Virus record (IMG/VR): IMGVR_UViG_3300020440_000010
Span: 18,573-82,572 of that record
Direction: 5' to 3' (one strand)
Length of the DNA stretch: 64,000 nt
Source of the DNA: a virus
Taxonomy: Duplodnaviria > Caudoviricetes
Every line of letters begins with the position of its first letter. Within the stretch, counting starts at the first letter, position 1. A program made the translations under genes and the position numbers. The notes beneath the pieces are model-generated. The model did no database searches. It worked only from the letters and a program-made list of their open reading frames with translations, and was not told the DNA's origin. This document shows, in pieces, positions 9,405-59,428 of this stretch.

Positions 9405-9716
9405 TTATTTTTTTGAATTGTTTATAAAGTTGTAAAACTTTTCAGCAGTTTCTAATACATCATCAACTCCAGGAATATCTGGCATACCGACTTTGTTTAC
9501 GATCTCACCAGTCTTCTCATCACGAGCGGATGTAATTTCCCAACCATTCCATTTGCTTGAATATTCAAACTCCTTGAATTGTTTTGCCATGTCTAATACA
9601 TTGGTACGGATTTCGTAACCATTTTTATTAAACTGTACTTTGGGTAGTGTTTCACGCACTGATTGTGCTAGTTGTTCGGCACCTTTTTCGATACCTTCTT
9701 TAAACGTCTTGTTCAT
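9405..9716 (-). CDS. Hypothetical protein
   Basis: 103 aa, strong SD (AAGGAG), own promoter. Confidence 0.75.
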   Translation of the reverse strand: MNKTFKEGIEKGAEQLAQSVRETLPKVQFNKNGYEIRTNVLDMAKQFKEFEYSSKWNGWEITSARDEKTGEIVNKVGMPDIPGVDDVLETAEKFYNFINNSKK

Positions 9717-9756
9717 ACTGTTTCTCCTTTGTGTGTATGTGTGTTTAAGTTATATT

Positions 9757-9785
9757 ACTATAACATTTTTATTTAGTATTGTCAA
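9757..9785 (-). promoter_or_regulatory. Sigma70-type promoter
   Basis: TTGACA-17 nt-TATAGT with extended -10 TG on the minus strand. Confidence 0.7.
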
Positions 9786-9793
9786 GAGGTGAG

Positions 9794-9815
9794 TAAAGGC
9801 TCTTTCGAGCCTTTA
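9794..9815 (-). terminator. Hairpin ending the small-protein operon
   Basis: TAAAGGCTC-GAAA-GAGCCTTTA perfect 9-bp stem. Confidence 0.65.
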
Positions 9816-9818
9816 TTC

Positions 9819-9881
9819 TTATTTGGATTTTGGTTTTGGATTAGAAAGCATTTCGTTTTCTTCATCAGTATAAGGCCACAT
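9819..9881 (-). CDS. 20-aa small ORF MWPYTDEENEMLSNPKPKSK (not in track)
   Basis: GGAGG SD; TAATG overlap with the upstream ORF stop. Confidence 0.55.
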   Translation of the reverse strand: MWPYTDEENEMLSNPKPKSK

Positions 9882-9985
9882 TAGAACATTCCTCCATATT
9901 TCATTGCGTTTAGAATTAAAACAGCAAATAAGATAGACATCATTATTGCAATTGGTAGTAAACTCTGTATAAAGGTTTTAAGCAT
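9881..9985 (-). CDS. 34-aa single-TM small protein MLKTFIQSLLPIAIMMSILFAVLILNAMKYGGMF (not in track)
   Basis: AAGG upstream; overlaps the 84-aa ORF end; hydrophobic helix. Confidence 0.55.
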   Translation of the reverse strand: MLKTFIQSLLPIAIMMSILFAVLILNAMKYGGMF

Positions 9986-10232
9986 GAGCCTTACCTTTCC
10001 AAGTTGCTACACGTTTACCTCTCATGTAATGATCTCCAGGTTCATAAGAAGCCTTTTTATCGCGGTATTTTTCTAATCTAATAATTGCCGCTTTGCGAGT
10101 GTTACTTAACTTGGCTTTCTCTAGCATTAAAACTTTTGCTTGTTCATATAAACCTTGTTGTGCTAAATTGGCCGCCGCACGAGCATAACCCATTTGTGTT
10201 AAAGTATTTTTTATTCTTTGCCATATCAACAT
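9978..10232 (-). CDS. Small basic protein (MGYARAAANLAQQG motif)
   Basis: AGGAG SD; 84 aa. Confidence 0.7.
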   Translation of the reverse strand: MLIWQRIKNTLTQMGYARAAANLAQQGLYEQAKVLMLEKAKLSNTRKAAIIRLEKYRDKKASYEPGDHYMRGKRVATWKGKAHA

Positions 10233-10244
10233 TTTATCTCTCCT

Positions 10245-10427
10245 TTATCTGTAATATGCTTGTTTCTTTTGGAAGATTCCACCACCAATGTGTGATACCT
10301 TCCCGTGTTGGAGAAGTCGTTGGCGACGCTCCAAGTCAACAAGATCAACAGACTGAGACAGCCAACGTTCTTCGGGGCTGACAGTTGATTTTGCCAAAAG
10401 TTTTTTAAAGTAATTAAGAAGTCGCAT
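10245..10427 (-). CDS. DUF3563-like small protein
   Basis: EERWLSQSVDLVDLERRQRLL resembles the DUF3563 core (YL..A.D..DLE.R.R); AGGAGG SD; TAATG coupling. Confidence 0.55.
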   Translation of the reverse strand: MRLLNYFKKLLAKSTVSPEERWLSQSVDLVDLERRQRLLQHGKVSHIGGGIFQKKQAYYR

Positions 10428-10630
10428 TATGCTACCTCCTTTGTAGGCTTTGTCCAACCATTTAACTCGCTATGAGTTGGCGCCCTACCATTGTGATCTA
10501 ACATGAATTGATAAGCATATTGCCAATCATTCTTGTATTCAGTTCTGGCCCATGTGTATAGATCGTTACGAAACCTTTTACCGGCTCCGCATTTCATCCA
10601 AGACACTAGACCACTTATTAAGTGGTTCAT
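10427..10630 (-). CDS. Hypothetical protein, first gene of the small-protein operon
   Basis: AGGAG SD directly after the structured leader. Confidence 0.7.
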   Translation of the reverse strand: MNHLISGLVSWMKCGAGKRFRNDLYTWARTEYKNDWQYAYQFMLDHNGRAPTHSELNGWTKPTKEVA

Positions 10631-10631
10631 T

Positions 10632-10838
10632 TTTTTCTCCTATGTATTGGATGCTTAAGGAAAGCAATACCCCCTGTCTTTTCAGGGCGTCAGTGGTCTT
10701 TTCCACCGTCAATGCCACTTTGGGCATCGTCAATTGCTGTTTAAGGAGTGCTCTCAACTCCCCAGTCTCTCCTGGTGTATGTGTGTGTCGTAGTTGTCAG
10801 GCCTCTACTGGAACGTAAAAGTCTTTGCACTGCAACAT
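10632..10838 (-). ncRNA. Structured ~200-nt 5' leader RNA (unassigned motif)
   Basis: Closing stems CTTAA/TTAAG and AGCAAT/ATTGCT enclose three hairpins, each preceded by TGACG; two more hairpins upstream. Confidence 0.7.
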
Positions 10839-10841: not shown

Positions 10842-10882
10842 TATTTATATACTACTATAACATTTCGCCTTAAAAAGGTCAA
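10842..10882 (-). promoter_or_regulatory. Tandem early (sigma70) and late (TATAAATA) promoter
   Basis: TTGACC-17-TATAGT followed by TATAAATA on the minus strand. Confidence 0.7.
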
Positions 10883-10966
10883 GTTTTTATTTGAGAGGAT
10901 GTGTTAAATTTTTTTTACAATTATTATAAAGGAGTTTTATTTTGCGATGATAAGTTCTAAATAATT

Positions 10967-11218
10967 GTGACTATGATGGACAAAAAGAAATGGCGAGCAA
11001 CTAAACGTAAGGCTCCTAAAGTGCCTGACGATACTTGTCCAATTATTGACGGTGTGTTAGATAGACTTGATGCTATACACAAAGGAAACAAAAAGCACAC
11101 ACAATTTCAACACGATCAAATAATCAAGAAAATGGAACAGATTAGAAAAGCCAACGAACAGTTACGTGAAAGCGGACACTATTGGTATGATTTGGCAAAA
11201 AGATTCCTTAAACCTTAA
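10967..11218 (+). CDS. Hypothetical protein
   Basis: 83-aa ORF after CTAAATA. Confidence 0.6.
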   Translation: MTMMDKKKWRATKRKAPKVPDDTCPIIDGVLDRLDAIHKGNKKHTQFQHDQIIKKMEQIRKANEQLRESGHYWYDLAKRFLKP

Positions 11219-27806: not shown

Positions 27807-27881
27807 AACCCTCCTTGGTTTGTTTTGGCTAATTTTTTAGACTTTAGTTATCATTTAAATTAAAAAACACGCACTTTATGA

Positions 27882-27912
27882 TTGACATCCAAAACAAATG
27901 GTGCTATAAATA
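27882..27912 (+). promoter_or_regulatory. Composite early/late promoter of tmRNA
   Basis: TTGACA-17-TATAAA, where the -10 also reads TATAAATA. Confidence 0.7.
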
Positions 27913-27916
27913 TAAG

Positions 27917-28220
27917 TGTAATTGTTGACAGCATCGTATGTCACAAGAGCAGGACCCCGGGGCGGTACCGGGCAGGTCCACCATAAACACATTGTTTTTT
28001 ATGGTTAGTAGTGTGTTTATGATGGGCCTGAAATAGGATCGACTGGCTTGTTAAGGGTGAAAGAGATTACCGGTAAGGTACGACCGAGCATTATATGGGG
28101 AGACTCATGCTACTGTCCAAAAACCATAAATGCAAACGATAATTTTGCATCTGAAGAGTTACGTCTAGCGGCGTAGTTCTACGGGGTTGGCAACTTACCT
28201 GGCAACAGAAAAGTTGCACT
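27917..28220 (+). ncRNA. ssrA: Circularly permuted (two-piece) tmRNA, alphaproteobacterial type
   Basis: Acceptor piece: T-arm CCCGG-GGCGGTA-CCGGG, CAGGTCC-A-CCA ending at 27983. Intervening hairpin. Coding piece starts GGGCCTGAAATAGGATCGAC at 28024 (G3.U70 pair). Outer ends approximate. Confidence 0.93.
28132..28176 (+). other. tmRNA tag reading frame (A)ANDNFASEELRLAA*
   Basis: GCA resume codon, ANDN start, LAA-stop ClpX degron. Confidence 0.9.
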
Positions 28221-46697: not shown

Positions 46698-46774
46698 CTG
46701 CTCGTAGTTCAGTTGGATAGAACATCAGTTTGCGGAACTGGAGGTCGGAGGTTCGAATCCTCCCGAGCAGGCCA
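46698..46774 (+). tRNA. tRNA-Arg(GCG)
   Basis: Cloverleaf CTGCTCG/CGAGCAG, anticodon loop TT-GCG-GA, TTCGAAT T-loop, encoded CCA. Confidence 0.92.
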
Positions 46775-46786
46775 GAAAGTGAAAAA

Positions 46787-47020
46787 ATGACAGAATTTAG
46801 AAATGGTATACTAAACACACTGAGAAACTTAATGTCAAAGGGTTCTTTGACTCTTGCTATCATTTACACACTAGGTCATATCTGTATCGCAATGGCGGTG
46901 GTCTATACACTTACAGGATCTAGTATATGGGAAGCAGGATTAGTTGCTTTAGTTGAACCCACAATAAATGGTGTTTGGTTTTACATCTTACACAAGACTT
47001 GGTCCTATTTTAGGAAATAA
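46787..47020 (+). CDS. DUF2061-like membrane protein
   Basis: YTLGHICIAM.V...LTG...A..VA.VEP..N.VWFY...K.W. Confidence 0.75.
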   Translation: MTEFRNGILNTLRNLMSKGSLTLAIIYTLGHICIAMAVVYTLTGSSIWEAGLVALVEPTINGVWFYILHKTWSYFRK

Positions 47021-47030
47021 GGAGATTTAA

Positions 47031-47219
47031 TTGCAGATTTTATGGCATTTATTACTGACCGTGTGTTCTGGGTCTAGTTGTTTAGAACAAGATATACAGT
47101 GGTTTGAAAACAAGCAGTCTTGCGAAATTATACGAACACAGTATATTGAAATACCAACAGATGGTGATTGGGATACTGTTAATTACGTGTGTAAACCTAT
47201 TAATTCAGTAGGCACTTGA
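47031..47219 (+). CDS. Small secreted Cys-containing protein
   Basis: AGGAG SD, TTG start, 4 Cys. Confidence 0.55.
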   Translation: MQILWHLLLTVCSGSSCLEQDIQWFENKQSCEIIRTQYIEIPTDGDWDTVNYVCKPINSVGT

Positions 47220-47285
47220 TCCGTCGGACACCATAACTTTATAATCCTTATATTTGGCTAAATAATTGCAAATAGAGGATTTCAA

Positions 47286-49034
47286 ATGGCAGACAATTAT
47301 ATTACCAATTACAACGGGTCTATAAGTGCTTTATCGCAGAACCTAGACGTTAACGGACAGAATATACAAGGTGCTGAAGTAAGCATTAGAACCAACGCCA
47401 GTAATGGTGATATTATAATTCAGCCTAACGGAACTGGTGATGTTATTATCAACGGTTTTAAGTTTCCTAGAACAGATGGCAATCAGTTTGAATTTTTACA
47501 AACAGATGGCAGTGGTAACCTAGCATTTAATAGAACACCAGTAGGTGGTGGTGGTAGTGGAAGTGGCAATTACTACTGGCAAATAGCCGCAGATGATTCC
47601 ACAGCAATACCTGTGTTGAGCGATAACATTATTAAATTTATAGGTGGAGATGGTATTACAACTGCTACAGATCAAGATGGTAATTTAACACTCAATCAAG
47701 CACCGCAGAATTTTTCCGTTACAGGTGAAGCATCAGCATCAGCAGTATCATACAATGGTACAGGTGCAGTAGCATTAAACGTAACACTGGATCATAATGC
47801 ACTTGATGATCAATACCTTAGACTAGATGGCACAACACAACCAGCCGGAGCAATTAATTTTAATTCACAAAATATTACAAACGGTGGAACATTTACAGCC
47901 TCTAGTTTTGTAGGAGCACTTACAGGTAATGTACAAGGTGATGTTACAGGTGATGTCACTGGCAATGTAAGTGGTACAGCCGGTGCAGTTGATTTTCCTA
48001 ATGTCACAAACAAGCCTACCACAGTTGCAGGCTATGGAATTACAGATGCACTTGCACTATCCAGTCTAAGTGTAGGAGCAGATGCTTCTGCAAGTGGCAG
48101 TGGTGGAATAGCATTTAATGACTCAAGCGGAGTGTTCACTTATACTCCACCTGATTTATCAAGTTATCTTACTGCTGAATCAGATACTTTGGATTTGGTT
48201 ACAGACAGAGGTGCAACAACCACTAACAACATAACAGTTGGAAGTGTTACAACAACTGGAACAAATACACTTGTTGGTACTGAAATTAAAATTGTTGGTA
48301 ATAAAATCGAAACTATTAATTCAAATTCCAACATAAATTTAGAACCTGCAGGCACTGGTGTTGTAGAAATTACAAGCGGTGTTACTGTTCCTGACACAAA
48401 AACTGTTGTATTTGGTAATGGTAATTCAATAGCAAGTAATGGTACTGGTGTACTTGAAACATCCACAACAACAAATAGAATTAAAGCAGATACATTTGAA
48501 GTTAAGAACAGTGCAAATGATGAAACACTATTAACGGCGGCAAACGCAGGTCCTGTTACACTGTATTATGATAACAGTTCTAAACTTAACACAACTAACA
48601 CTGGGGTAAACATTGGTGGTGGAATCACAGTGCAAAATGATGTTGAAGCAACAGGAAATTTAGGTAGTGCAAATCTTACAAGTGGCAGAGTTACTTTTGC
48701 AACCACAGGAGGAGTACTTACTGATAATGCTAAACTTACATTTAATGGAGCAACACTAGATATCAATGGCTCTGTAGATGCAACTGTATTTTTGACAGAA
48801 GGTCTTAGAATTACTCAAAATGATATTTCAAGCACACGATCAAACGAACCTTTAACTATTGCGGCAAATGGTACAGGTAATGTGCAAATTGATGATCCTA
48901 CAATAATTGGTGCTACACTACAGACAACTGTAGGAGGTGATGGCGGAGGTAGTGGACTACCTGCAACGCCTGTAACATATTTAAGAATTAGTATTAACGG
49001 AACAGAATACAAAATTCCGCTATACAACACGTAA
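47286..49034 (+). CDS. Tail-fibre-like virion protein
   Basis: T/G/N/S-rich; shares AADDS and TL..VTDRG.TT.NNITV modules with 28389..30821. Confidence 0.7.
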   Translation: MADNYITNYNGSISALSQNLDVNGQNIQGAEVSIRTNASNGDIIIQPNGTGDVIINGFKFPRTDGNQFEFLQTDGSGNLAFNRTPVGGGGSGSGNYYWQIAADDSTAIPVLSDNIIKFIGGDGITTATDQDGNLTLNQAPQNFSVTGEASASAVSYNGTGAVALNVTLDHNALDDQYLRLDGTTQPAGAINFNSQNITNGGTFTASSFVGALTGNVQGDVTGDVTGNVSGTAGAVDFPNVTNKPTTVAGYGITDALALSSLSVGADASASGSGGIAFNDSSGVFTYTPPDLSSYLTAESDTLDLVTDRGATTTNNITVGSVTTTGTNTLVGTEIKIVGNKIETINSNSNINLEPAGTGVVEITSGVTVPDTKTVVFGNGNSIASNGTGVLETSTTTNRIKADTFEVKNSANDETLLTAANAGPVTLYYDNSSKLNTTNTGVNIGGGITVQNDVEATGNLGSANLTSGRVTFATTGGVLTDNAKLTFNGATLDINGSVDATVFLTEGLRITQNDISSTRSNEPLTIAANGTGNVQIDDPTIIGATLQTTVGGDGGGSGLPATPVTYLRISINGTEYKIPLYNT

Positions 49035-49043
49035 GGATAGAAC

Positions 49044-49550
49044 ATGACAGACTTTATACAAAATGTAAATTTAAGTTGGGATAGCACAGATACAAGTCCT
49101 GTTCTTGCAGGTGACTTAGATGTCAATGGTAATAATATTGTAAGCATTAACAACGGTGATATAAATTTAGTTCCAGATGGCAGTGGCAGAATAATTTTAG
49201 ACACTGTAAAAGTTGAAGGTAATACTTTAAGTACAGTCAACGGACAAGCATTAAACTTTAATGACAATGTTACATTTGCAGGCGACGTAACTGTAACTGG
49301 TGCTTTTGAAGCCACAACATCAGGTACTCCTACTTTAGAAAGTGTTGGAGATATTAACATAGAACCAGCAGGAAAATTAGTAGTGGATGCACCTATAGTT
49401 TTAAAAAGTTATACAGTAGCACAACTTCAAGTGCTAGGTTCAACAGCAGGTGCAATAGCATACGCAACAGATGAAAGTGGAGGTGCTCAGCCTTGTTTCT
49501 TTGATGGAACAAACTGGCGTAGATTTACTGATAGAGTTGTAATTTCCTAG
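49044..49550 (+). CDS. Short tail-fibre-like protein
   Basis: DTSPVLAGDLDVNG; C-terminal A.A.DE.GG..P.F.DG.NWR. Confidence 0.65.
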   Translation: MTDFIQNVNLSWDSTDTSPVLAGDLDVNGNNIVSINNGDINLVPDGSGRIILDTVKVEGNTLSTVNGQALNFNDNVTFAGDVTVTGAFEATTSGTPTLESVGDINIEPAGKLVVDAPIVLKSYTVAQLQVLGSTAGAIAYATDESGGAQPCFFDGTNWRRFTDRVVIS

Positions 49551-49558
49551 GAGATAAA

Positions 49559-51220
49559 ATGTCTGAAAAACAATATCAGGTAGCAGTTGAACAAGACCAC
49601 GTAGCAGATGTAGATGCTGAATTAAGAAGAAGCAGTGGCAGTAGCACTATTCCAAACAGAAGTGTAGATGTTGCAGATGCGAGAACAAACAGCAAAAGAA
49701 TTACTCACTATGCCCTTACTGCCGAAGAAGCAGAAAAACTAAGACAAGATCCTAGAGTAAAAGGCGTTGAACTTACCAAAGAAGAACGCGAGGCTGTGCC
49801 TTTGGAACAGCGTGGTGACCAGAGAGATACTAATATATTTGACACACTTGATTATGATTTAGGTCAAGGTGACTTTGATAAAACTGTAGACAGTGGCACA
49901 GATTTGAATTGGGGATTTATGCGTCACACTCGCAGACTTGATCCTTGGAATGGAGCAGGTGGTACTGTAACTACAAACCACAGAAGTGCAATAGATGGCA
50001 CAGGTGTTGATATTGTAATATCAGATGACGGCAGTGAAACTGGACATCCTGAATGGCTATCAGAAGATGGTAGCACATCAAGATTTCAACAGATAGATTG
50101 GTATGCAGGTGCAGGCGTTTCAGGAACAATGCCCACTAATTTCTATGACGTAACATCAGGTCATGGTGCTCACGTAATGGGAACAGCAGGTGGACTATAC
50201 CACGGTTGGGCCAAAGGTGCTCATCTTTACAGTATGAAAACTTTAGACAGTGGTGCAATTAGTCCTAGTGCAAGTACTAGTTCTTTTGATCTAATTAGAT
50301 TATGGCATAAAAATAAACCAGTAGATCCTGAAACAGGATTTAAAAGACCAACAGTAGTAAATGCAAGTTGGGGTAGTTTGTTTGGTATGGGTCAATCTAG
50401 CAATACATGGAATCTTAATTATAGAGGAACAAATTACACTAATCAAACTGTTGGTGGCAACATATATGGCTTTGTGGGAAGATATAGATCAGACTTTGGT
50501 CAATTTGTTCATCCTTACAGCAATCCTATATACGAAACTGAAATCGAAGATATGCAAGATGAAGGAGTACATTTTGTTACTTCTGCAGGAAACTATCAGA
50601 GTTATATAGCCGCCGTAGGAGATCAAGATTACAATAACCAAACAACTTCACCTTTTTCATACTTTTATCATAGAGGTGGATTGGGTGGCACTTTATCTAA
50701 TGCAATCACAGTTGGAAACATTAACAACAACAACGGTGGCGGAGGTGCAAGTTCTACTGAAGAAACAAAAGCAGACAGTTCTGAATGTGGTCCAGGAGTT
50801 ACTATATGGGCGGCCGGTACTAGTATTATTAGTGCAGGATTTCAAGAAGCATCTTTTGGAAATACTTACACCTATGGTTATAGTGGAAACAGTGGAAATA
50901 CATATGGAAGTTTAGTTATAAGTGGAACTAGCATGGCATCACCACAAGTGTGTGGAGCATTGGCTTGTTACTTACAAACTAATCCAGGTGCAACACCACA
51001 GCAGGGCAGAGAATGGTTGGAAGAACAAGCAACTAGAGGTTTATTATATTACACATCTCAGACTGATTATAGAAACAGTTATAATTGTGCTGACCCTGAT
51101 AGAAGAATACTTTACATTCCTTATTGGAACAAACATATTAGAAGGCTAAACAATAAAGAAGCCTTTACAAAAAGCACCGTAAAAATGACCGGTGTTGGAC
51201 TTAAATTTAAAAAGAACTAG
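49559..51220 (+). CDS. Subtilisin-like serine protease (S8)
   Basis: VDIVISDDG (Asp), GHGAHVMGTAGG (His), SAGN, SGTSMASPQVCG (Ser); N-terminal prodomain. Confidence 0.92.
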   Translation: MSEKQYQVAVEQDHVADVDAELRRSSGSSTIPNRSVDVADARTNSKRITHYALTAEEAEKLRQDPRVKGVELTKEEREAVPLEQRGDQRDTNIFDTLDYDLGQGDFDKTVDSGTDLNWGFMRHTRRLDPWNGAGGTVTTNHRSAIDGTGVDIVISDDGSETGHPEWLSEDGSTSRFQQIDWYAGAGVSGTMPTNFYDVTSGHGAHVMGTAGGLYHGWAKGAHLYSMKTLDSGAISPSASTSSFDLIRLWHKNKPVDPETGFKRPTVVNASWGSLFGMGQSSNTWNLNYRGTNYTNQTVGGNIYGFVGRYRSDFGQFVHPYSNPIYETEIEDMQDEGVHFVTSAGNYQSYIAAVGDQDYNNQTTSPFSYFYHRGGLGGTLSNAITVGNINNNNGGGGASSTEETKADSSECGPGVTIWAAGTSIISAGFQEASFGNTYTYGYSGNSGNTYGSLVISGTSMASPQVCGALACYLQTNPGATPQQGREWLEEQATRGLLYYTSQTDYRNSYNCADPDRRILYIPYWNKHIRRLNNKEAFTKSTVKMTGVGLKFKKN

Positions 51221-51474
51221 TATACGTATAAAATATTATATTTCTTAATCTTAGCAATTAAGTTAGTTCTTCCAATGCCTAGTATTTTTGCGGCATGGGT
51301 TCGATTGCCATTAGCAGTGTCTAACGCATTATGTATTCTTGCTTTTTCAAGACTTTCTACTTCTGAAGGCAAAGATTCATCATTTTTGAATTGTTGGTCA
51401 AACCATAGGGTATCAAAAAAGTCGAAAAATTCTGTCTGTTCTTTGAAATTTGTATCAGTATCTATATGTTTCAT
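51217..51474 (-). CDS. Fis/NtrC-type HTH protein
   Basis: RIHNALDTANGNRTHAAKILGIGRTNL..KIKKY. Confidence 0.85.
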   Translation of the reverse strand: MKHIDTDTNFKEQTEFFDFFDTLWFDQQFKNDESLPSEVESLEKARIHNALDTANGNRTHAAKILGIGRTNLIAKIKKYNILYVY

Positions 51475-51719
51475 ATCTGTATTGCTTCTCCTCTAGGTAG
51501 GTAATTAGGCATATTTCTTTCAGGAACACAGTAAACCATCTCGATTGGTCTAGTGCCATAGTTTCGCTGAACATTTACGATTATAGATTCTGGATTTTCC
51601 CGTGCCCATACTTGACATTTTTCAATGCTTTCGAATTCGGGTTCAGTAAAGATAAACAAGTCTCTTTCACCGTTAGGTCCTGCGCCTAGCATCAGTACCA
51701 CCAATAAAGTTTTTAACAT
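51471..51719 (-). CDS. Small secreted/membrane protein
   Basis: N-terminal hydrophobic helix, AGGAG SD. Confidence 0.65.
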   Translation of the reverse strand: MLKTLLVVLMLGAGPNGERDLFIFTEPEFESIEKCQVWARENPESIIVNVQRNYGTRPIEMVYCVPERNMPNYLPRGEAIQI

Positions 51720-51864
51720 TTACTCTCTCCTATTATGTACGTATATTATTTATTAAAAAACTAGAATGCACACATTAAGTGGACAATATAATACATAGGT
51801 GTAAATATTTTTACACTAAATGATAAATATCTATAGTTAACTAATCGAGCAAGGGTAAAGAAAT

Positions 51865-52416
51865 ATGAGAGAATTGAAGATTATTCTGATAGCGGCTCTT
51901 AGCATTTTTATGGTTGAAACCGCATTCGCTGAAACAAACACTGTAACTTCAACTGTTACAGGAACAACTACGGTTGATAAAACACCACCAACTGCCTCTG
52001 CTCCTAACGTAATGATTAACAATCAGGATGTGTGTTCAACAGGAACCAGTGCCGCAGTACAAACACAGGTATTTGGTATTGCAGGTGGAACAACTATACG
52101 AGATCTAAACTGTGAAAGATTAAAATTATCCAGATCATTATATGGTATGGGTATGAAGGTTGCCGCAGTATCCTTATTATGCCAAGATGCACGAGTATTT
52201 GAAGCAATGGAAATGGCAGGAACACCTTGTCCGTACAAAGGTAAAATTGGTATTGAGGCGGCTAAGGCTTGGGCAGAAAATCCAGAGAAACGTCCTGACT
52301 ATGAGAAATGGTTAAAAGAAAATGATCTTGAAGCATACGAAAAAGAATGGAAAAATAAAGCGACTACTTGGGCAACTGGCCTTGGCGCTCTTGGTTTCCT
52401 TTTATTCCTACTCTAG
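51865..52416 (+). CDS. Exported protein with C-terminal TM (4 Cys)
   Basis: Signal peptide AFA; DLNCERLKLSRSL...KVAAVSLLCQD. Confidence 0.75.
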   Translation: MRELKIILIAALSIFMVETAFAETNTVTSTVTGTTTVDKTPPTASAPNVMINNQDVCSTGTSAAVQTQVFGIAGGTTIRDLNCERLKLSRSLYGMGMKVAAVSLLCQDARVFEAMEMAGTPCPYKGKIGIEAAKAWAENPEKRPDYEKWLKENDLEAYEKEWKNKATTWATGLGALGFLLFLL

Positions 52417-54358
52417 TTTAGCATACGATCAACAGTATCAAGTAGGTGATACAGGACCTAACGGTGGTACAGTAACATCTGTTGATGTAACATCTGCTAT
52501 TACAGGAACTGAAGTTACTCTCAATGGTGGCTTTGAAGATACAACTACAACAACTCAGTATACCGAAACAGTAATAGAACAAATATCAACTTCTGAAACA
52601 ACTACACAGACTACAACACAATTAGTTTCTACAACAACTTCAAACTTTGCACCAACTATTAATAGTGCAAGTAATGCCGCAGGAGATTGGTCAACTGAAG
52701 GTAGAATAAAGTTACAAGGCGAATCACAATGTGGAACAGGTGGATCAAGTGCAACTGTTGGTGCAGGTCAAGCCTGTACAGGTTACCAACACAGTAATAG
52801 TAACAGTCTTGTAGCAAATACCAATAATCATAACTTCACGGCATTGGGTGGAGGTACTATTACTACCCCTCTGGGCGAATTGACTCTAGATATGACTGTC
52901 GCGGAGATACAAGCAGGGTTTACATTGAACCATGGTGTTGATGTACAATCACATAGGTCAAACCTAACTGTGCCTTTGTGTTCAGCAACCACTACTGACT
53001 GTAAGGACGTATTTAGAATCACTACAAAACTTAGAAGTGGTTGCGGCGGTAACGGCTGTACGGTGATTGGTGAATATTCAAATAGTGTAACACTAGATTA
53101 CAGTGGCACACAAACACATTCGTTTAGTCATAATATTGGACCAAACAACTACACAGAGATATGGGGAGAGATGGAACTGTGGGGAGTTGACGCAGGATAC
53201 CACTCAGGTTTTTATGGTCCTGTGTTTAGCGATCCTTTCATGACACTAACATATGATGCTATAACAACTATTACACAAGAGATAACAAACATTATATTAA
53301 GTAACCAAGAAACAGTTTACAATACAAGTGAGTCAGTACTTACAAGTGTTTACATAGGTGATCCTATTGCTGATACTATTGTAGTTGAGCCTATTGACTA
53401 TACAGAAGTAGATTCATTTGAAATAGAAATAGTAGACAGTAATGGCGGCGGTATTGAATTAGAATTTACAGTTGAAGTAGACGAAACAGCCAATGTAGCA
53501 ACTGTAGAAATGAGTTCAACAAACTTAGATACAGGCGTTGTTCAGGTAGAAAGCATAGCAGAAATTAGTTTAGACTTCGAAATGGATACAGGCGCAACTG
53601 AAATGCCAGAGATTACTGTTGCAGAAATTGAAGCAGACATTGGATCACAGATTGATAGTGCTGTTGCCGATGCTGTTGCAGAAATAGAAATAGATGTAGG
53701 CCCAACTGAAAACATAGAAGTAGCAAGTGTAAATACTAGTGAAGGAAATACTGATGGGCCAGAATCGACACAGGAAGTTTCCGAAACAGAAAGTTCAAGC
53801 ACCTCAGAGTCAACAGTGGAGGCGGAGAACGTACAAGAGTCCAGTGAAAATGCTGAACAGCCAGTGGAGGAAAGTGGAAGTGAATCAGAAGGGTCAGACA
53901 GTGGAGACACTGATTCTGGAGAGAATACCAGTGGGGCAGAAACCAAATCCGAAGCCGGAGATAAAGAAGGTGGAGATAGTAACAAAGACTCTTCCAGCGG
54001 AAAAAAGTCTAAAGGAAAAGGAGGCTCTACTAAATCAAAACAAGAACAAAAAAGAGAGTACGTTGAAAAGAAGATCGCAGAGTCCAAGCAGAAGATCGCA
54101 ACTAGAATCCTCGCCGCAATGGCAGACACGTACAGTGCGATAAACGAAACTACTAAAATTGCACTAATGCAAAGCCTAGCAGATCAGGATAATTTTAACA
54201 AATATATAGCACAAAAGAACGCAGATTTGCCTAGTTGGTATGCAGATACACAAGTTTATCAAGATATGCCACAATTACTAGACCCTGCATCTGTGCTTTA
54301 TAATATGGCACAAGACAAGATCATGGAAGAAATGATCATGCAACAATACAAAGAGTAG
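52322..54358 (+). CDS. Large exported acidic/Thr-rich protein (exact start uncertain)
   Basis: Signal-like KRLLGQLALALLVSFYSYSSLA; E/S-rich linker. Confidence 0.7.
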   Translation: MILKHTKKNGKIKRLLGQLALALLVSFYSYSSLAYDQQYQVGDTGPNGGTVTSVDVTSAITGTEVTLNGGFEDTTTTTQYTETVIEQISTSETTTQTTTQLVSTTTSNFAPTINSASNAAGDWSTEGRIKLQGESQCGTGGSSATVGAGQACTGYQHSNSNSLVANTNNHNFTALGGGTITTPLGELTLDMTVAEIQAGFTLNHGVDVQSHRSNLTVPLCSATTTDCKDVFRITTKLRSGCGGNGCTVIGEYSNSVTLDYSGTQTHSFSHNIGPNNYTEIWGEMELWGVDAGYHSGFYGPVFSDPFMTLTYDAITTITQEITNIILSNQETVYNTSESVLTSVYIGDPIADTIVVEPIDYTEVDSFEIEIVDSNGGGIELEFTVEVDETANVATVEMSSTNLDTGVVQVESIAEISLDFEMDTGATEMPEITVAEIEADIGSQIDSAVADAVAEIEIDVGPTENIEVASVNTSEGNTDGPESTQEVSETESSSTSESTVEAENVQESSENAEQPVEESGSESEGSDSGDTDSGENTSGAETKSEAGDKEGGDSNKDSSSGKKSKGKGGSTKSKQEQKREYVEKKIAESKQKIATRILAAMADTYSAINETTKIALMQSLADQDNFNKYIAQKNADLPSWYADTQVYQDMPQLLDPASVLYNMAQDKIMEEMIMQQYKE

Positions 54359-54381
54359 TATAAATACAATAGGAGAACATT

Positions 54382-54852
54382 ATGGCAGAAATAGAATATA
54401 AAGGTATTAAAATAGGTGGTAGCAAACTATTATTAGTTCTACCTTTGATAGGTACAATAATGGGTGGACTATGGGGAGGTTTTGAACTGTTTAGCAGATA
54501 CCAAGCCATGGAAGCCAAAATAGATTCTTATGTTGCTCCAGACCTAAGTGGCTTTGATAAGCGCCTTGCAGTGATTGAAGAAGAAATTACATTCATGAAA
54601 GAAGAACTAGAACTTGTTGTAGGAGTTACTAGAGATCTTAAAGGTGACATGAAAGGCGATATTAGAAGAATTGAAACTATTGTTGAAGATACAGAAACAA
54701 AAGTAAAAGAAGACTCAAGAGAACTTAATAGAGATATAAATGATGCTATTAAAACTATCAAGCAAGATATGAAAGAACTTGATGAAAAGATTAGCAAACA
54801 AATTAAAAAGGCTCTTGAAAATCCGTTAGCCGACATGGCAACAAGCAAATAA
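54382..54852 (+). CDS. N-terminally anchored coiled-coil protein
   Basis: TM then heptad-rich region; TATAAATA promoter. Confidence 0.75.
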   Translation: MAEIEYKGIKIGGSKLLLVLPLIGTIMGGLWGGFELFSRYQAMEAKIDSYVAPDLSGFDKRLAVIEEEITFMKEELELVVGVTRDLKGDMKGDIRRIETIVEDTETKVKEDSRELNRDINDAIKTIKQDMKELDEKISKQIKKALENPLADMATSK

Positions 54853-54861
54853 GGAGTAGAT

Positions 54862-55122
54862 ATGTCAGAAAAAATAATCAAAGTAGAAAAAGTTGCTAGA
54901 GTTGAAGATGAAGGTTGGGTAGAATCTAAAGCAGAACGCAAAAAAGTAGAAGCAGGTGAAGTTACATTACCTGATGGTATTAACCCTACAGAAATTGCAG
55001 AAAGCAAAGATGTTTCTGAACCTGATAATTTACATCAGCCAACAGATGCAAACGGTGAACCGTTACCAATTTCTGCTTCTAAACTTCCAAAAAATTATAC
55101 TAACAGTAAAGTTAAAAAGTAA
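54862..55122 (+). CDS. Hypothetical acidic protein
   Basis: AGGAG SD. Confidence 0.6.
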   Translation: MSEKIIKVEKVARVEDEGWVESKAERKKVEAGEVTLPDGINPTEIAESKDVSEPDNLHQPTDANGEPLPISASKLPKNYTNSKVKK

Positions 55123-55454
55123 TACGTAGCAAAGTGTAAACTTTGATCAGCGGATTGCAAGGCCCAAAAAGTCTTATGTTGTGTTGTAATTTCAAACTTC
55201 TTAATCACAGATGTTTTGGCAAAATCAATATGCCAATGTGCTATATGATCAATTAAGCATAGCACAATAGCAAATTGTAAATCAACAAAAAATAAAGCAA
55301 TAAGCAAAGTCAATACACTATGGTGTAGATAGTGTGTTTGACTGTATAAATCTAAATATTTTTGCTTGTTGGCACCACTTACAAAATACCTCTGTAGCAT
55401 TAAATCTGCAACCGTGTGTTTTAACAGTAGCAGAAAAAAGAACAGTAAGTACAT
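55095..55454 (-). CDS. DUF3307-like membrane protein
   Basis: KH..ADL.LQ...H..HH...H..HWHID..K...DQ.LH. Confidence 0.75.
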   Translation of the reverse strand: MYLLFFFLLLLKHTVADLMLQRYFVSGANKQKYLDLYSQTHYLHHSVLTLLIALFFVDLQFAIVLCLIDHIAHWHIDFAKTSVIKKFEITTQHKTFWALQSADQSLHFATYYFLTLLLV

Positions 55455-55563
55455 TTGATAATCTCGCTCGACGGGGTATCCACTTTTATTTACCAAAAAA
55501 ATTATTTTTGAGTTGACACACATCAACTTAGGTGTTATTATGAGTATAATGTTTTGGAGCAAA

Positions 55564-55640
55564 CCGCTCGTAGCACAACTGGATAGAGCAACGGCCTTCT
55601 AAGCCGTAGGTTGCAGGTTCGAGTCCTGCCGAGCGGGCCA
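55564..55640 (+). tRNA. tRNA-Arg(TCT)
   Basis: CCGCTCG/CGAGCGG, loop CT-TCT-AA, encoded CCA. Confidence 0.93.
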
Positions 55641-55703
55641 AAACACAATGAGCATCTGTATATTTGACATTGTATAAATATACGTATATTATTATAAGGA
55701 CAT

Positions 55704-56264
55704 ATGAAAAGATTTGAAAATTTTACAGCAGATGACAGAATAGACGTTTCGCTTTTAGAAAACGATATACATTATTTGACTGGAGATATAGCAGAAGAAA
55801 ATATTGGTAATGCTATTAAATGGATTGTTAGTGCTAATTTAACCAAGAAACCAAAACGTACTTTAGAATTATATATTAACAGCACAGGTGGTGATTTGTA
55901 CCAAGCATTTGCTTTGATTGATATAATGAAAGAAAGTTATCACACAATAAGCACTGTTGGAGTTGGAGCGGTAATGAGTGCCGCCTTTTTAATTTTTGTA
56001 AGTGGAAAACAGGGTTACAGATACATAGGAAAAAACACAGGTATAATGAACCATCAACATTCAGACGCTATGGAATCAAAGATGCATGACATGAGAAGTG
56101 CTATGAAAGAAAATGCAAACTGTGAACTAAGAAGTTTTAACATAATTAGAGAAGCCTGTGGAATGAGTTTGACCGATGTACGTAAAAAATTTAATGATAA
56201 AAGCGATCAATATTTTACGGCAAAACAATTAATTGATTTAAAACTAGCAGACGAGATTTTATAA
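55704..56264 (+). CDS. Divergent ClpP-family protease
   Basis: YINSTGG, AVMSAA (Ser), IMNHQ (His), DQYFTA (Asp). Confidence 0.85.
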   Translation: MKRFENFTADDRIDVSLLENDIHYLTGDIAEENIGNAIKWIVSANLTKKPKRTLELYINSTGGDLYQAFALIDIMKESYHTISTVGVGAVMSAAFLIFVSGKQGYRYIGKNTGIMNHQHSDAMESKMHDMRSAMKENANCELRSFNIIREACGMSLTDVRKKFNDKSDQYFTAKQLIDLKLADEIL

Positions 56265-56509
56265 TGCATTATGAATATGAAGATTACCGATCGAAGCCAC
56301 CTAAACCAGATCTTGGTCCGTGGTTAACTTATTCCATACCGGAGTATTTTGCAATTGATTACATTTTAAAAATGTTTTTTATTTTGTTTTTACTACCATA
56401 TCTTTTCGGATTTGTTTTTACTGTTATGGGATTTTTCTTAAATACTATTTTTGTTGACTATATCCTTTATTGGAGTTACAAACGAAAAATAGATCAAATG
56501 TGGAGTTAA
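56264..56509 (+). CDS. Small membrane protein
   Basis: Hydrophobic F/L-rich segments. Confidence 0.6.
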   Translation: MHYEYEDYRSKPPKPDLGPWLTYSIPEYFAIDYILKMFFILFLLPYLFGFVFTVMGFFLNTIFVDYILYWSYKRKIDQMWS

Positions 56510-56510
56510 T

Positions 56511-57002
56511 GTGCAAAAATTTAAAGACAATATAAACGAATTTTTTCGTTGGGTTAAAGGAACTGAATTAGTTGAACTAGACGATATAGATGTTTCTGAA
56601 GATCCTGTTAGACCAGAACTTACATTAGGTTGGAGAATAACCAATGGCAGAAAAATATTTGGTTTAAAGTTTGAGGAAGAGATTGAAGGAATTATTTGTG
56701 TGGCATTTACAAATGATATTCCCCACAGTGTTAAAGAACTAGACATGATGAGTGAACTTGCACATCTTAAAGATCAAAAGAATATTGCTATTGCATACAC
56801 TGTATGGAGTAGGAAAAAAGGTGCAGGAAAAGAGATAATTAATAAAGTAATTGAATACGCAAAGAAAAATGGTATTGAAAGAGTGATAACTTTATCTCCG
56901 TTGACTCCTATGGCAACACACTTTCATATTCGTAATGGAGCAAAGGTCATTAGCATTAACAGTACCACACAAAATTTTGAGTATAAGTTAGGAGAAAAAT
57001 AA
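56511..57002 (+). CDS. Possible GNAT-fold protein
   Basis: YTVWSRKKGAGKEII...A.....TLSP...A..FH.RNGA resembles acetyl-CoA-binding motifs. Confidence 0.45.
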   Translation: MQKFKDNINEFFRWVKGTELVELDDIDVSEDPVRPELTLGWRITNGRKIFGLKFEEEIEGIICVAFTNDIPHSVKELDMMSELAHLKDQKNIAIAYTVWSRKKGAGKEIINKVIEYAKKNGIERVITLSPLTPMATHFHIRNGAKVISINSTTQNFEYKLGEK

Positions 57003-57445
57003 TGCCTCTTAGATCATTTGGTTGTGAAGATTGTGAATTTGAGTGGGATGAACTGGTACCCATGGACGGTACCGCTGAAACTTGTCCAAACTGTGGTAAG
57101 ACAAATATAAAAACTATGATTACATCTGCTCCTGTTGTTAGAACACCAGAGTACGAATGGAGTTCGCACGATAAGAAAGAAATTCAAGTTAAAACTTTAA
57201 GTGATAGACACGCCACAGAAATGACTGTTGGATATGCACCTAAAGAAGACACTGCTATAAAAATACCCGGCAGTGATATCCAGCACTATGCTGAATATGA
57301 AAAATCTGTGTCAGTGCTACACAAAGAAGATTATGATCCTCGCGAACGCAATTATAAACAAAAAAAAGAAATTGAGAAAATAATGAAGGGTCCTAAAACC
57401 TTTAGTATGCCTTCATCTACTAAAACTTCACGTAAACCTAAGTAA
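57002..57445 (+). CDS. FmdB-like zinc-ribbon protein
   Basis: MP...F.CEDC...E.L........CPNCG. Confidence 0.75.
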   Translation: MPLRSFGCEDCEFEWDELVPMDGTAETCPNCGKTNIKTMITSAPVVRTPEYEWSSHDKKEIQVKTLSDRHATEMTVGYAPKEDTAIKIPGSDIQHYAEYEKSVSVLHKEDYDPRERNYKQKKEIEKIMKGPKTFSMPSSTKTSRKPK

Positions 57446-57453
57446 ATACAATC

Positions 57454-58158: not shown

Positions 58159-58183
58159 CAACAATACCATTCGGTAGTATAGT
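58155..58183 (+). promoter_or_regulatory. Sigma70-type promoter for tRNA-Leu
   Basis: TTGACA-17-TATAGT. Confidence 0.7.
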
Positions 58184-58228
58184 ATACATATAGTTAGAGC
58201 AGAGAAGGAACTTACAATTAGTTTTATC

Positions 58229-58314
58229 GCGAGCATGGCGGAATAGGTAGACGCAACGGACTTAAAATCCGTTGACCATTGGTCGTGAGAGTTCGAGTCT
58301 CTCTGCTCGCACCA
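58229..58314 (+). tRNA. tRNA-Leu(TAA)
   Basis: GCGAGCA/TGCTCGC, loop CT-TAA-AA, variable arm, A73, encoded CCA. Confidence 0.93.
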
Positions 58315-58456
58315 ATAGGGAACGAGTATAAACGTGGTTAGGCCTGGCCCCTAGATAAAAGTTCAGGCGGGAAATTGGGAGGCGCCCTCGAGAAAGGTCT
58401 CAGCAAGTCCTGAGCATGACTTTAAACTGCTCTACTATAAGAGAAAGGATATAGTT

Positions 58457-58879: not shown

Positions 58880-58884
58880 GATAC

Positions 58885-58958: not shown

Positions 58959-58974
58959 ATTCGGAAAGTACAGT

Positions 58975-59151: not shown

Positions 59152-59187
59152 TAAACAACAAACACAATCTATTAAGAGGAGTTTATT

Positions 59188-59421: not shown

Positions 59422-59428
59422 AGTTAGT

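What the first reader, a model, noticed from the sequence alone, without database searches (positions are those of the whole stretch)
10632..10838. Unassigned multi-hairpin leader RNA with three TGACG-hairpin repeats
Seen on the minus strand after a dual early/late promoter: CTTAA-ac-AGCAAT [TGACG-ATGCC-caaagt-GGCAT][TGACG-GTGG-aaaaga-CCAC][TGACG-CCCTG-aaaaga-CAGGG] ggt-ATTGCT-ttcc-TTAAG. The three stems differ in sequence but keep pairing, the linker (UGACG) is identical, and the loops are similar (xAAAGx). Upstream are hairpins CCAG-gagaga-CTGG and GGAGT-tgagagc-ACTCC with GAGAG-type loops. Inference: a repeated protein-binding array (sponge or translational operator, CsrB-like logic) or a new cis-regulatory RNA controlling the small-protein operon. 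I could not match it to a riboswitch class I know.
Basis: partly seen in the sequence, partly recalled or inferred. Interest (0 to 1): 0.76.

Follow-up and report, generated by a model that had tools for sequence, protein, structure and literature searches.

The report
Hairpin-array leader RNA of phage microprotein operon
The flagged stretch is a real, strongly conserved folded RNA leader, absent from the RNA catalogues, that sits once per genome in front of the same tiny-protein operon in hundreds of uncultured giant marine phages and most likely controls how much of those proteins is translated.

Summary
On the minus strand (about 10838-10631), three UGACG-linked hairpins lie inside a closing stem, with two more hairpins upstream.

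It is not chance. It is always followed by one small-protein family, here ORF1 at 10427-10630. All five hairpins show compensatory changes: 95-97% of cells paired, 0 of 500 shuffles as good.

Rfam 15 has no match for the window or for seven homologues, and cultured-phage records have none.

The repeated unit is GAC-R, then a helix starting C-G and G.U, then a purine hexaloop (R-A-N-A-G-A) closed by G-C. Hairpin A upstream is a fourth copy. Copy number varies from 1 to 4 between phages.

A 3' hairpin presenting UUUCC overlaps the closing stem. A further hairpin starts at the G of the AUG.

There is one copy per genome, including a complete 342.6-kb phage.

Best reading: a cis translational operator whose repeated hairpins bind a protein, perhaps an operon microprotein. 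The binder and the switch are inferred, not shown.

The outer CTTAA/TTAAG stem is not supported.

This scan has already reported the same family on other genomes (e1-5732399, e1-5804043, e1-5713533, e1-5406397, e1-5839518).

The parts
10854..10882 (-). Sigma70-like promoter TTGACC-17 nt-TATAGT with TG before the -10 hexamer
   Evidence: Consensus scan, 10 of 12 matches. This is a match only; function was not tested.
10842..10849 (-). T4-type late-promoter-like TATAAATA. The predicted transcript start is a few bases downstream, at about 10836-10838.
   Evidence: ATAAATA lies upstream of 122 of 133 distinct homologous leaders, against 6% of control pieces.
10786..10837 (-). 5'-proximal hairpin domain of the leader (inner hairpin CUUUUAC-GUUCCA-GUAGAGG at 10802-10821)
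   Evidence: Minimum-free-energy fold. ACGUUCCAGUAG recurs in L012, L047 and L115. Not tested by covariation.
10776..10790 (-). CA-rich single-stranded spacer (CGACACACACAUACA); the C at 10775 closes hairpin A
   Evidence: ACACA-N-AGACAC/ACAC is conserved in the window-type subfamily.
10762..10775 (-). Hairpin A, CCAG-GAGAGA-CUGG: a fourth copy of the repeated unit (5' flank ACA, loop R-A-N-A-G-A closed by G-C)
   Evidence: 100% paired with compensatory changes (helix 1). Unit catalogue.
10745..10761 (-). Hairpin B, GGAGU-UGAGAGC-ACUCC (variable loop)
   Evidence: Four of five pairs show changes on both sides in A3. It is replaced by GGCAU/AUGCC, GCGCA/UGCGU or GCGGA/UCCGU in other loci.
10733..10738 (-). 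P1 5' strand, AGCAAU
   Evidence: Pairs with 10663-10668. Only one-sided C/U and A/G changes opposite G and U; 82-98% paired. Absent in some subfamilies.
10710..10729 (-). Unit 1: CG-AUGCC-CAAAGU-GGCAU-UG (UGACG linker at 10728-10732)
   Evidence: Helix 4: 100% paired, 3 pairs with double changes.
10691..10708 (-). Unit 2: CG-GUGG-AAAAGA-CCAC-UG (UGACG at 10707-10711)
   Evidence: Helix 5: 100% paired, 2 pairs with double changes. The invariant G.U second pair makes the fold strand-specific.
10670..10689 (-). Unit 3: C-G-CCCUG-AAAAGA-CAGGG-G-G (UGACG at 10688-10692), followed by the invariant GGU
   Evidence: Helix 6: 98.5% paired, 2 pairs with double changes. In 61 distinct cores the last unit is always followed by GGUAU.
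10663..10668 (-). P1 3' strand, AUUGCU (overlaps H2)
10652..10666 (-). H2 hairpin UGCUU-UCCUU-AAGCA, presenting a pyrimidine CC loop. It is mutually exclusive with P1.
   Evidence: Invariant in the main type. The equivalent hairpin in the L002-type subfamily shows compensatory changes: GGAUG/CAUCC, GGAUGC/GUAUCC, GGAUUC/GAAUCC. The H2 state (-75.0) and the P1 state (-73.1 kcal/mol) are nearly isoenergetic.
10636..10641 (-). Shine-Dalgarno AGGAGA. It can pair with UUCCU (10658-10662) or UCC (10649-10651).
   Evidence: Sequence. In the RNAfold ensemble the two G are paired with probability 0.99. The SD is predicted paired in most homologues, but with varying partners.
10609..10628 (-). Hairpin that starts at the G of the AUG (G-A..CCACUU-AAU-AAGUGG-U-C)
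   Evidence: 96.4% paired in 32 sequences but almost invariant, so covariation cannot test it. The analogous AUG-sequestering hairpin of the short-ORF1 subfamily does covary.
10427..10630 (-). ORF1: 67-aa microprotein of the family L-T-W-A-K/R-T-E-Y-x-x-D-W-x-Y-A-Y. This gene is always linked to the leader.
   Evidence: All 115 downstream ORFs form one family. 192 clusters in the profile search. No Pfam, PHROG, PDB or Atlas match. Predicted helical, pLDDT 73.5.
10245..10427 (-). ORF2: 60-aa DUF3563 protein. Its start overlaps the ORF1 stop (UAAUG).
   Evidence: PF12086, 28.4 bits against a cut-off of 26.9. In other loci this slot holds a DUF1127 protein.
9405..10232 (-). Further operon microproteins: ORF3 (84 aa, 9978-10232), ORF4 (34 aa, hydrophobic, 9881-9985) and ORF5 (103 aa, 9405-9716)
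   Evidence: Homologues sit at the same positions in 156, 47 and 42 loci respectively.

Best explanation
This is the 5' leader (about 205 nt) of a late-transcribed microprotein operon of an uncultured giant marine phage. It belongs to a large, uncatalogued family of modular structured leader RNAs.

Shown:
- The RNA folds into a series of hairpins built on one repeated unit. The unit is a GAC-R flank, then a helix opening with C-G and a G.U (or purine.G) pair, then 4-5 variable base pairs, then an R-A-N-A-G-A hexaloop closed by G-C.
- The window has four copies of this unit (hairpin A plus three units); other phages have one to four.
- The array is followed by an invariant GGUAU and by hairpin H2, which presents UUUCC next to the Shine-Dalgarno sequence.
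- A further potential hairpin starts at the AUG.

Inferred:
- The repeated loops are binding sites for a protein, most economically one of the microproteins encoded downstream, with ORF1 the prime suspect because the linkage is to ORF1.
- Occupancy shifts the balance between two nearly isoenergetic folds.
- With the closing stem P1 formed, H2 cannot form. Its UUCCU is then free to pair with the SD AGGAG, so translation is off.
- With H2 formed, the SD is more accessible, so translation is on.
- The element would therefore act in cis as a translational, probably autoregulatory, operator.
For: Family and linkage:
- All 115 downstream ORFs belong to one family.
- 116 of 123 distinct ORF1 gene contexts carry the leader.
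- There is one copy per genome, including a complete 342.6-kb genome with terminal repeats.
- Within this contig the unit occurs nowhere else.

Structure:
- A1 (29 sequences): 97.2% paired, 85 double-change cells against 27.6 in shuffles, covariation 0.317 against 0.108, 0 of 500 shuffles as high; slid controls 0.014-0.038.
- A3 (window type, 14 sequences): 95.6% paired, 14 pairs with double changes, 0 of 500.
- 99 distinct units with 55 different stem pairs share the same loop and closing pair.
- The invariant G.U pairs make the fold specific to the transcribed strand.

Against a fixed ligand pocket: hairpin number varies from 1 to 4, a variant unit CCGG-GGAAGU-UCCGG exists, and P1 is missing in some subfamilies.

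Translation level:
- H2 shows compensatory changes in the L002-type subfamily.
- P1 and H2 share UGCU and differ by 1.9 kcal/mol. In the P1 state UUCCU pairs with AGGAG.
- The AUG-sequestering hairpin of the short-ORF1 subfamily covaries at the cost of amino-acid conservation: 0.331 against 0.163, 0 of 500.
- No U-tract terminator follows the leader.

Some operon partners belong to DUF1127, a family with one member shown to bind RNA (PMC8034643).
Against: - No binding partner is identified. ORF1 has no recognisable RNA-binding fold or family and is only mildly basic.
- P1 is supported by one-sided changes only and is absent from minimal leaders such as L142 and L135, so the P1/H2 switch cannot be general.
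- The anti-SD reading of the H2 loop is weakened by variants (GUCCUC, GACCUU, AACCAC) that pair poorly with GGAG.
- There is no covariation between the hairpin loops and the H2 element.
- RNAfold places the SD with different partners in different homologues.
- Expression evidence is limited to contigs from RNA libraries.
Confidence: 0.45

Rival explanations
1. Constitutive stability and translation element. The hairpins protect the late mRNA from 5' decay and shape the ribosome-binding region for very high expression, without any dedicated ligand or regulator.
For: - A 5'-terminal hairpin domain and a CA-rich spacer precede the array.
- The leader sits behind a conserved late-type promoter.
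- There is no terminator.
- The number of hairpins is flexible.
Against: Stability hairpins need no invariant loops. Here the hexaloop, its G-C closing pair, the GAC-R flank, GGUAU and the CC of H2 are conserved across 99 units with 55 different stems. That points to specific recognition.
Confidence: 0.2
2. Processed stable RNA acting in trans. The leader or its hairpin array is cut off and accumulates as an sRNA or sponge that titrates a host or phage RNA-binding protein. This would be analogous to the cuckoo/CcsR RNAs made from DUF1127 transcripts, or to CsrB.
For: - It is a repeated hairpin array with identical loops.
- In many loci it is co-transcribed with DUF1127 genes.
- CcsR RNAs are processed from the UTRs of DUF1127 genes (PMC8034643).
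- Short contigs from RNA libraries cover just the leader, which is a weak hint only.
Against: - It is strictly single-copy and always directly abuts the SD of ORF1.
- Contigs cannot show RNA ends or levels.
- There is no CCUCCUCCC or GGA loop motif and no Rfam ar14 or CsrB match.
Confidence: 0.15
3. Small-molecule or ion riboswitch whose aptamer is the conserved core: the last hairpin, GGUAU and H2.
For: - More than 20 nearly invariant nucleotides lie in a core of about 45 nt next to the SD.
- Alternative P1/H2 pairing resembles an expression platform.
- GG and CC are invariant and could form a pseudoknot (inference).
Against: - The architecture varies: 1-4 hairpins, optional P1, and three different H2 solutions.
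- The downstream genes are microproteins of unknown function, not transporters or enzymes.
- It matches no known riboswitch class.
Confidence: 0.12
4. Type III toxin-antitoxin-like module. Tandem RNA repeats upstream of a protein that processes and binds them.
For: Tandem 19-21-nt hairpin units lie directly upstream of a protein gene, and the element is phage-borne.
Against: - The units differ in stem sequence rather than being identical direct repeats.
- Some leaders have a single unit.
- ORF1 is 55-75 aa and helical, far smaller than ToxN-type endoribonucleases.
- No terminator lies between the repeats and the gene.
Confidence: 0.02
5. DNA-level repeats (operator sites for a DNA-binding protein), or chance.
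For: TGACG is a short word and is not enriched in the window overall.
Against: - Compensatory changes keep the pairing.
- Invariant G.U pairs exist only on the transcribed strand.
- The position is always between promoter and SD.
- The element is conserved in more than 130 distinct leaders.
Confidence: 0.01

Closest known systems
CIN1 loci of Alphaproteobacteria: cuckoo/CcsR RNAs (Rfam ar14 and relatives) with the DUF1127 protein CcaF1 (PMC8034643)
   Same: - Tandem hairpin RNA modules are co-transcribed, in a 5' or 3' UTR, with tiny proteins.
- Module copy number varies.
- A pyrimidine-rich CC loop is present (H2).
- DUF1127 genes sit in many homologous phage operons.
- CcaF1 binds RNA.
   Different: - CcsR hairpins carry CCUCCUCCC loops and act in trans after RNase E processing. 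Here the repeated loops are purine-rich R-A-N-A-G-A.
- The element abuts the SD of a different microprotein (ORF1).
- The window's own operon has DUF3563, not DUF1127.
- There is no ar14 match.
CsrB/RsmZ-type protein-sponge RNAs
   Same: Arrays of short hairpins with one conserved loop motif and differing stems, giving multivalent protein binding as the operating logic.
   Different: - The CsrA/RsmE sites are defined by GGA in the loop. Here the loops are AAAAGA, CAAAGA or GAnAGA.
- The element is a cis leader with 1-4 units, not a free-standing sRNA with many sites.
Phage translational operators (MS2/Q-beta coat protein-replicase hairpin; T4 gp32, gp43 and RegA operators)
   Same: - A phage mRNA leader or initiation-region hairpin is recognised by a phage protein to repress translation.
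- A hairpin includes or touches the start codon.
   Different: - Those operators are single sites. Here a repeated module lies upstream of the SD, together with a separate 3' hairpin.
- The binder is unknown.
Lambdoid nut sites (boxA + boxB hairpin bound by N)
   Same: - Short G-C-rich stems carry a purine-rich GAAAA/GAAGA-like loop just downstream of a promoter.
- Unit 3 (CCCUG-AAAAGA-CAGGG) resembles lambda boxB. This resemblance is from my own recall and was not tested.
   Different: - These are hexaloops, often without the 5' G.
- There are several copies.
- No boxA consensus is present.
- No terminators needing antitermination are seen in the short operon.
Guanidine-II (mini-ykkC) tandem-hairpin riboswitch
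   Same: Two or more small hairpins with a conserved loop and variable stems lie upstream of an SD.
   Different: - Mini-ykkC loops are ACGR tetraloops that pair with each other. The purine hexaloops here are not self-complementary.
- No Rfam match.
- The downstream genes are unrelated.
uORF-dependent attenuation leader of a Sinorhizobium DUF1127 gene (bioRxiv 10.1101/2025.01.31.635925)
   Same: Post-transcriptional control of a tiny-protein gene by its leader, involving RBS pairing with a C-rich segment.
   Different: - That mechanism needs a translated uORF and premature termination.
- Here ORF1 is a conserved protein, not a uORF, and no terminator follows the leader.

Membership tests
Any Rfam 15 family | Covariance-model match at or near the family's gathering score | tested here: not met
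   Nothing in the region at gathering threshold. With E up to 10 there were only chance hits: Flavi_CRE at 19.1 bits against 42, and snoR128. Seven homologous loci gave no match at E up to 1.
Cuckoo/CcsR (ar14) RNAs | Two hairpins, each with a CCUCCUCCC anti-SD loop (PMC8034643) | tested here: not met
   The loops are CAAAGU, AAAAGA and GAGAGA. H2's loop is UCCUU. No ar14 hit.
Cuckoo/CcsR (ar14) RNAs | Adjacency to a DUF1127 gene (the CIN1 context) | tested here: inconclusive
   DUF1127 is the second gene in many homologous loci (44-46 bits). In the window that slot is DUF3563, and the RNA is tied to ORF1.
CsrB/RsmZ-type sponge | GGA (ANGGA) motif in the hairpin loops | tested here: not met
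   None of the 99 catalogued unit loops contains GGA inside the loop. Only the variant GGAAGU unit does.
Metabolite riboswitch (generic) | Fixed aptamer architecture with a conserved junction or pocket across members | tested here: inconclusive
   The core (last hairpin, GGUAU, H2) is conserved. But hairpin number, P1 and the H2 register all vary.
Type III toxin-antitoxin RNA (ToxI-like) | Identical tandem direct repeats, a terminator, then an endoribonuclease toxin of about 170 aa | tested here: not met
   Unit stems differ. There is no terminator. ORF1 is 55-75 aa.
Protein-binding translational operator (functional class, not a sequence family) | A specific protein binds the leader and changes translation | not testable with these tools
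   Only indirect support is available: invariant loops on variable stems, proximity to the SD and AUG hairpins, and strict linkage to ORF1.

The most novel reading that the evidence does not exclude
The repeated GAC-R/R-A-N-A-G-A hairpins are a multivalent operator for a previously unknown RNA-binding microprotein, either the ORF1 family or its DUF3563/DUF1127 partner. Giant marine phages would then carry a self-contained RNA-microprotein feedback module. Alternatively, the array is released as a sponge that captures a host RNA-binding protein late in infection.
Probability: 0.25. Interest if true: 0.8.

Novelty: new variant of a known kind. Interest (0 to 1): 0.7.

Why it matters
Structured cis-regulatory RNAs of phages are few, and those of uncultured giant marine phages are essentially unknown.

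This is a well-defined, abundant family with strong covariation, a clear modular grammar and a fixed genetic partner. That makes it a ready-made system for finding a new RNA-protein (or RNA-ligand) recognition pair.

It also gives a first handle on the function of the DUF1127/DUF3563-type microproteins that these phages share with Alphaproteobacteria.

It deserves an Rfam entry. It may already be among the 10,006 unnamed candidates of PMC10690425, which I could not check.

Tried and rejected
- **Rfam:** three scans found nothing.
- **Cultured phages (INPHARED):** blastn found nothing even at E up to 10.
- **PHROGs, Pfam, Foldseek-PDB and ESM Atlas for ORF1:** nothing.
- **Outer CTTAA/TTAAG stem:** 82.6% paired but zero covariation, and it breaks whenever the 5' side changes. 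Rejected.
- **Kissing or pseudoknot pairing between the purine hexaloops and the CUUUCC of H2:** the complementarity exists (GGAAAG:CUUUCC), but loop variants and H2 variants do not co-vary. Not supported.
- **H2 loop as a strict anti-SD:** variants GUCCUC, GACCUU and AACCAC pair poorly with GGAG, and RNAfold gives the SD different partners in different homologues. Kept only as an inference for the window type.
- **Metatranscriptome contigs:**
  - RNA-library contigs cover the leader and ORF1-3, including one 807-nt contig spanning 9962-10762.
  - Contig depth (88-178 for leader pieces against 17 for the coding piece in one run) cannot rank parts of a transcript.
  - The uncovered promoter region proves nothing.
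  - DNA carry-over cannot be excluded.
  - I draw no conclusion on a discrete sRNA.
- **GTDB genomes:** 61 pattern matches, of which all but four are chance hits in unrelated genes. The four real ones sit on contigs of three MAGs, probably mis-binned phage DNA.
- **Supplement of PMC10690425:** not held, so I could not check whether the motif is among its unnamed candidates.
- **Papers:** none found on DUF3563, or on DUF1127 in marine phages.
- **Covariance model:** not built. The pattern scans and pair counts already answered the questions it would have served.

Full report
**1. What is in the window**

- A sigma70-like promoter, TTGACC-17-TATAGT (10882-10854; 10 of 12 matches, TG-extended), is followed at once by TATAAATA (10849-10842).
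- Next come a 5' hairpin domain (about 10837-10786) and a CA-rich spacer.
- Then hairpin A, CCAG-GAGAGA-CUGG (10775-10762), and hairpin B, GGAGU-UGAGAGC-ACUCC (10761-10745).
- Then AGCAAU (10738-10733).
- Then three hairpins, each preceded by UGACG (10729-10710, 10708-10691, 10689-10670).
- Then GGU and AUUGCU (10668-10663).
- Then UGCUU-UCCUU-AAGCA (H2, 10666-10652).
- Then the SD AGGAGA (10641-10636) and the AUG of a 67-codon ORF (10630-10628).

TGACG as a word is not enriched in the window: 55 found against 51 expected. But the three consecutive TGACG-plus-hairpin units are unique in the 82.6-kb contig. G-[RANAGA]-C hairpins occur only here; shuffles give a mean of 1.5.

The 91-nt core folds into the proposed junction with z = -4.0. 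The 207-nt leader has z = -3.7.

**2. It is a large family**

- ORF1 led to two related viral loci whose upstream regions share the 3' part of the leader.
These gave 71 distinct leaders.
- Every downstream ORF (115 of 115) belongs to one family of 55-75-aa proteins, with the motif L-T-W/Y-A-K-T-E-Y-x-x-D-W-x-Y-A-Y.
- A second scan was blind to the RNA. It brought in divergent leaders.
- Of 123 distinct ORF1 contexts, 116 carry a recognisable leader.
- ATAAATA lies upstream of 122 of 133 distinct leaders, against 6% of control pieces.
- Large records hold exactly one copy. One of them is a complete 342.6-kb genome with terminal repeats.
- Cultured-phage records have no match.
- GTDB genomes have only four true matches, on MAG contigs that look like binned phage DNA.
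- The ORF1 profile finds 192 clusters at 50% identity.

**3. Structure**

- On 29 leaders of the commonest class, the five helices are 97.2% paired. There are 85 double-change cells (shuffles 27.6) and a covariation score of 0.317 (shuffles 0.108; 0 of 500 as high; slid controls 0.014-0.038).
- On the 14 leaders of the window's own three-unit class, 95.6% are paired and 14 pairs show changes on both sides (0 of 500). The three unit helices are 98.5-100% paired.
- The invariant G.U pairs would be A.C mismatches on the other strand. That fixes the structure to the transcribed strand.

- **Linker.** Each unit helix extends into the 'linker': the CG of UGACG pairs with the UG of the next UGACG. 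Neighbouring helices are therefore separated by one A.
- **Unit grammar.** Across all loci the unit is a GAC-R flank, then a helix opening with C-G followed by G.U (or a purine.G mismatch in the last unit and in hairpin A), then 4-5 free pairs, then a hexaloop R-A-N-A-G-A closed by G-C. There are 99 distinct units with 55 different stem pairs. Hairpin A is therefore a fourth copy.
- **Copy number.** The number of units inside the array runs from 0 to 3. A variant unit, CCGG-GGAAGU-UCCGG, often replaces the last one, and some subfamilies insert another covarying hairpin.

The closing stem P1 (AGCAAU/AUUGCU) shows only one-sided C/U and A/G changes opposite G and U. It is 82-98% paired and is absent from minimal leaders.

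The outer CTTAA/TTAAG stem has no support.

**4. The 3' end and the initiation region**

- Everything upstream converges on an invariant GGUAU followed by hairpin H2, whose loop always holds CC.
- In the main type H2 never varies. In the L002-type subfamily a hairpin around the same CUUUCC is built differently and shows compensatory changes: GGAUG/CAUCC, GGAUGC/GUAUCC, GGAUUC/GAAUCC.
- H2 and P1 share UGCU and so exclude each other. For the window, the H2 state (-75.0) and the P1 state (-73.1 kcal/mol) are close. In the P1 state the freed UUCCU pairs with the SD AGGAG.
- The two G of the SD are paired with probability 0.99 in the ensemble. Across homologues, though, the predicted partner varies, and several H2 loop variants pair poorly with GGAG.
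- A further hairpin sits on the start codon. In the short-ORF1 subfamily the AUG is inside a 7-bp stem that covaries while residues 2-5 of the protein change freely: 86.5% paired, covariation 0.331 against 0.163, 0 of 500.
- In the window's subfamily a hairpin from the G of AUG (10628) to 10609 is 96.4% paired but too invariant to test.
- No terminator follows the leader.
- Together these features point to control of translation initiation rather than of transcription.

**5. What it most likely does**

The features that need explaining are:
- identical loops and closing pairs on freely varying stems;
- a variable number of units;
- strict single-copy linkage to one microprotein gene;
- a conserved hairpin next to the SD;
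- a structured start site.

These fit a cis-acting translational operator with several binding sites for one protein. The cheapest candidate is a product of the operon itself, giving autoregulation.

ORF1 is predicted to be a small helical protein (pLDDT 73.5) with no known relatives.

The operon partner is DUF3563 in the window and DUF1127 in many other loci. DUF1127 includes CcaF1, an RNA-binding protein tied to tandem hairpin RNAs (PMC8034643).

The binder, and the direction of the P1/H2 switch, are inferences.

The rivals are a passive stability or expression element, a processed trans-acting RNA, and a riboswitch. All remain open. DNA-level repeats and a type III toxin-antitoxin system are effectively excluded.

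**6. Expression**

Seventeen runs on record as RNA (marine, seawater and salt-marsh metatranscriptomes) hold parts of the stretch.

Their contigs cover the leader and ORF1-3, including one 807-nt contig from 9962 to 10762. That is compatible with a leader-operon transcript.

Contigs cannot give ends, strand or level, and DNA carry-over is possible.

**7. Known or new**

- Nothing in Rfam 15 matches.
- A large IMG/VR screen (PMC10690425) may list this motif among its 10,006 unnamed candidates. Its supplement is not held.
- This scan has already reported the same family from other genomes, with the same conclusion. My analysis was done independently of those notes and agrees with them.
- What this report adds:
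  - the grammar of the repeated unit;
  - the identification of hairpin A as a further copy;
  - the covariation of H2 in the divergent subfamily;
  - the P1/H2 overlap;
  - the start-codon hairpin;
  - the one-copy-per-genome count;
  - the point that the linkage is to ORF1 rather than to DUF1127.

**Verdict**

The finding is real and is a member of a large uncatalogued family. It is a new variant of the known kind 'structured cis-regulatory leader / protein-binding hairpin array'. The mechanism is only partly resolved.

Noticed in passing
L104, L065, L033, L068 and about 100 other loci, 150-250 nt upstream of the leader; not present in window 10883-10990: A dyad, TGC-N7-GCA (often ATGC-N7-GCAT, as in a LysR-type box), lies upstream of the promoter in 101 of 133 homologous leaders. 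The window's own upstream region lacks it. No control frequency was computed; by rough estimate about 8% would be expected by chance.
   Followed up: partly
window 10245-10427 (-); L004:2190-2450, L072:2359-2601, L142:10400-10633: The second gene of the operon is a DUF3563 protein in the window's subfamily but a DUF1127 protein in the short-ORF1 subfamily. A third family (G-R-A-R-A-A-A-E-L..G-Y-H-x-E-A-K-A-L-M, window ORF3) is shared by both.
   Followed up: partly
L003-L188 (alignment A5), -1 to +17 relative to the ORF1 start: In the short-ORF1 subfamily the start codon is buried in a 7-bp hairpin that covaries (GGCA/UGCU, GUUU/AAAC, GACU/AGUU, GAUG/CAUC) while the encoded residues 2-5 change. 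The MKNV/MKKV subgroup instead places the AUG in the loop or stem of a CACU/AGUG-type hairpin.
   Followed up: partly
L244 (PBPT01000016.1, 335-kb contig) and L213, both in one Neomarinimicrobiota MAG; L222 in a Flavobacteriales MAG: The leader-ORF1 module sits on contigs of bacterial MAGs, one of them 335 kb long. These are probably giant-phage genomes binned with cellular DNA.
   Followed up: no
window 27878-28220 (+) and 46698-59519 (+): Rfam finds an alphaproteobacterial-type permuted tmRNA (125 bits) and five tRNA genes in the window. This is consistent with a large phage of an alphaproteobacterial host.
   Followed up: no
window 9405-9716 (-): The 103-aa last gene of the operon has a short hit just above Pfam's cut-off to 'Gene 1 ring forming protein' (PF24182, 23.1 bits against 22.6, 15 residues). 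It is conserved at the same position in 42 loci.
   Followed up: no
L144:3090-3237 (-): One three-unit leader has its P1 5' strand replaced (UAUCACGGGAA instead of ACAAAGCGAA). It carries the H2 variant AUGCU-AACCAUAA-AGCAU, so P1 cannot form there. This is a natural test case for whether P1 matters.
   Followed up: no
window 10967-11218 (+): A divergently transcribed 83-aa protein has a very basic N-terminus (KKKWRATKRKAPK) and weak coiled-coil/H-NS-like hits. It is not conserved next to the leader in L001, where a different gene occupies that side.
   Followed up: partly
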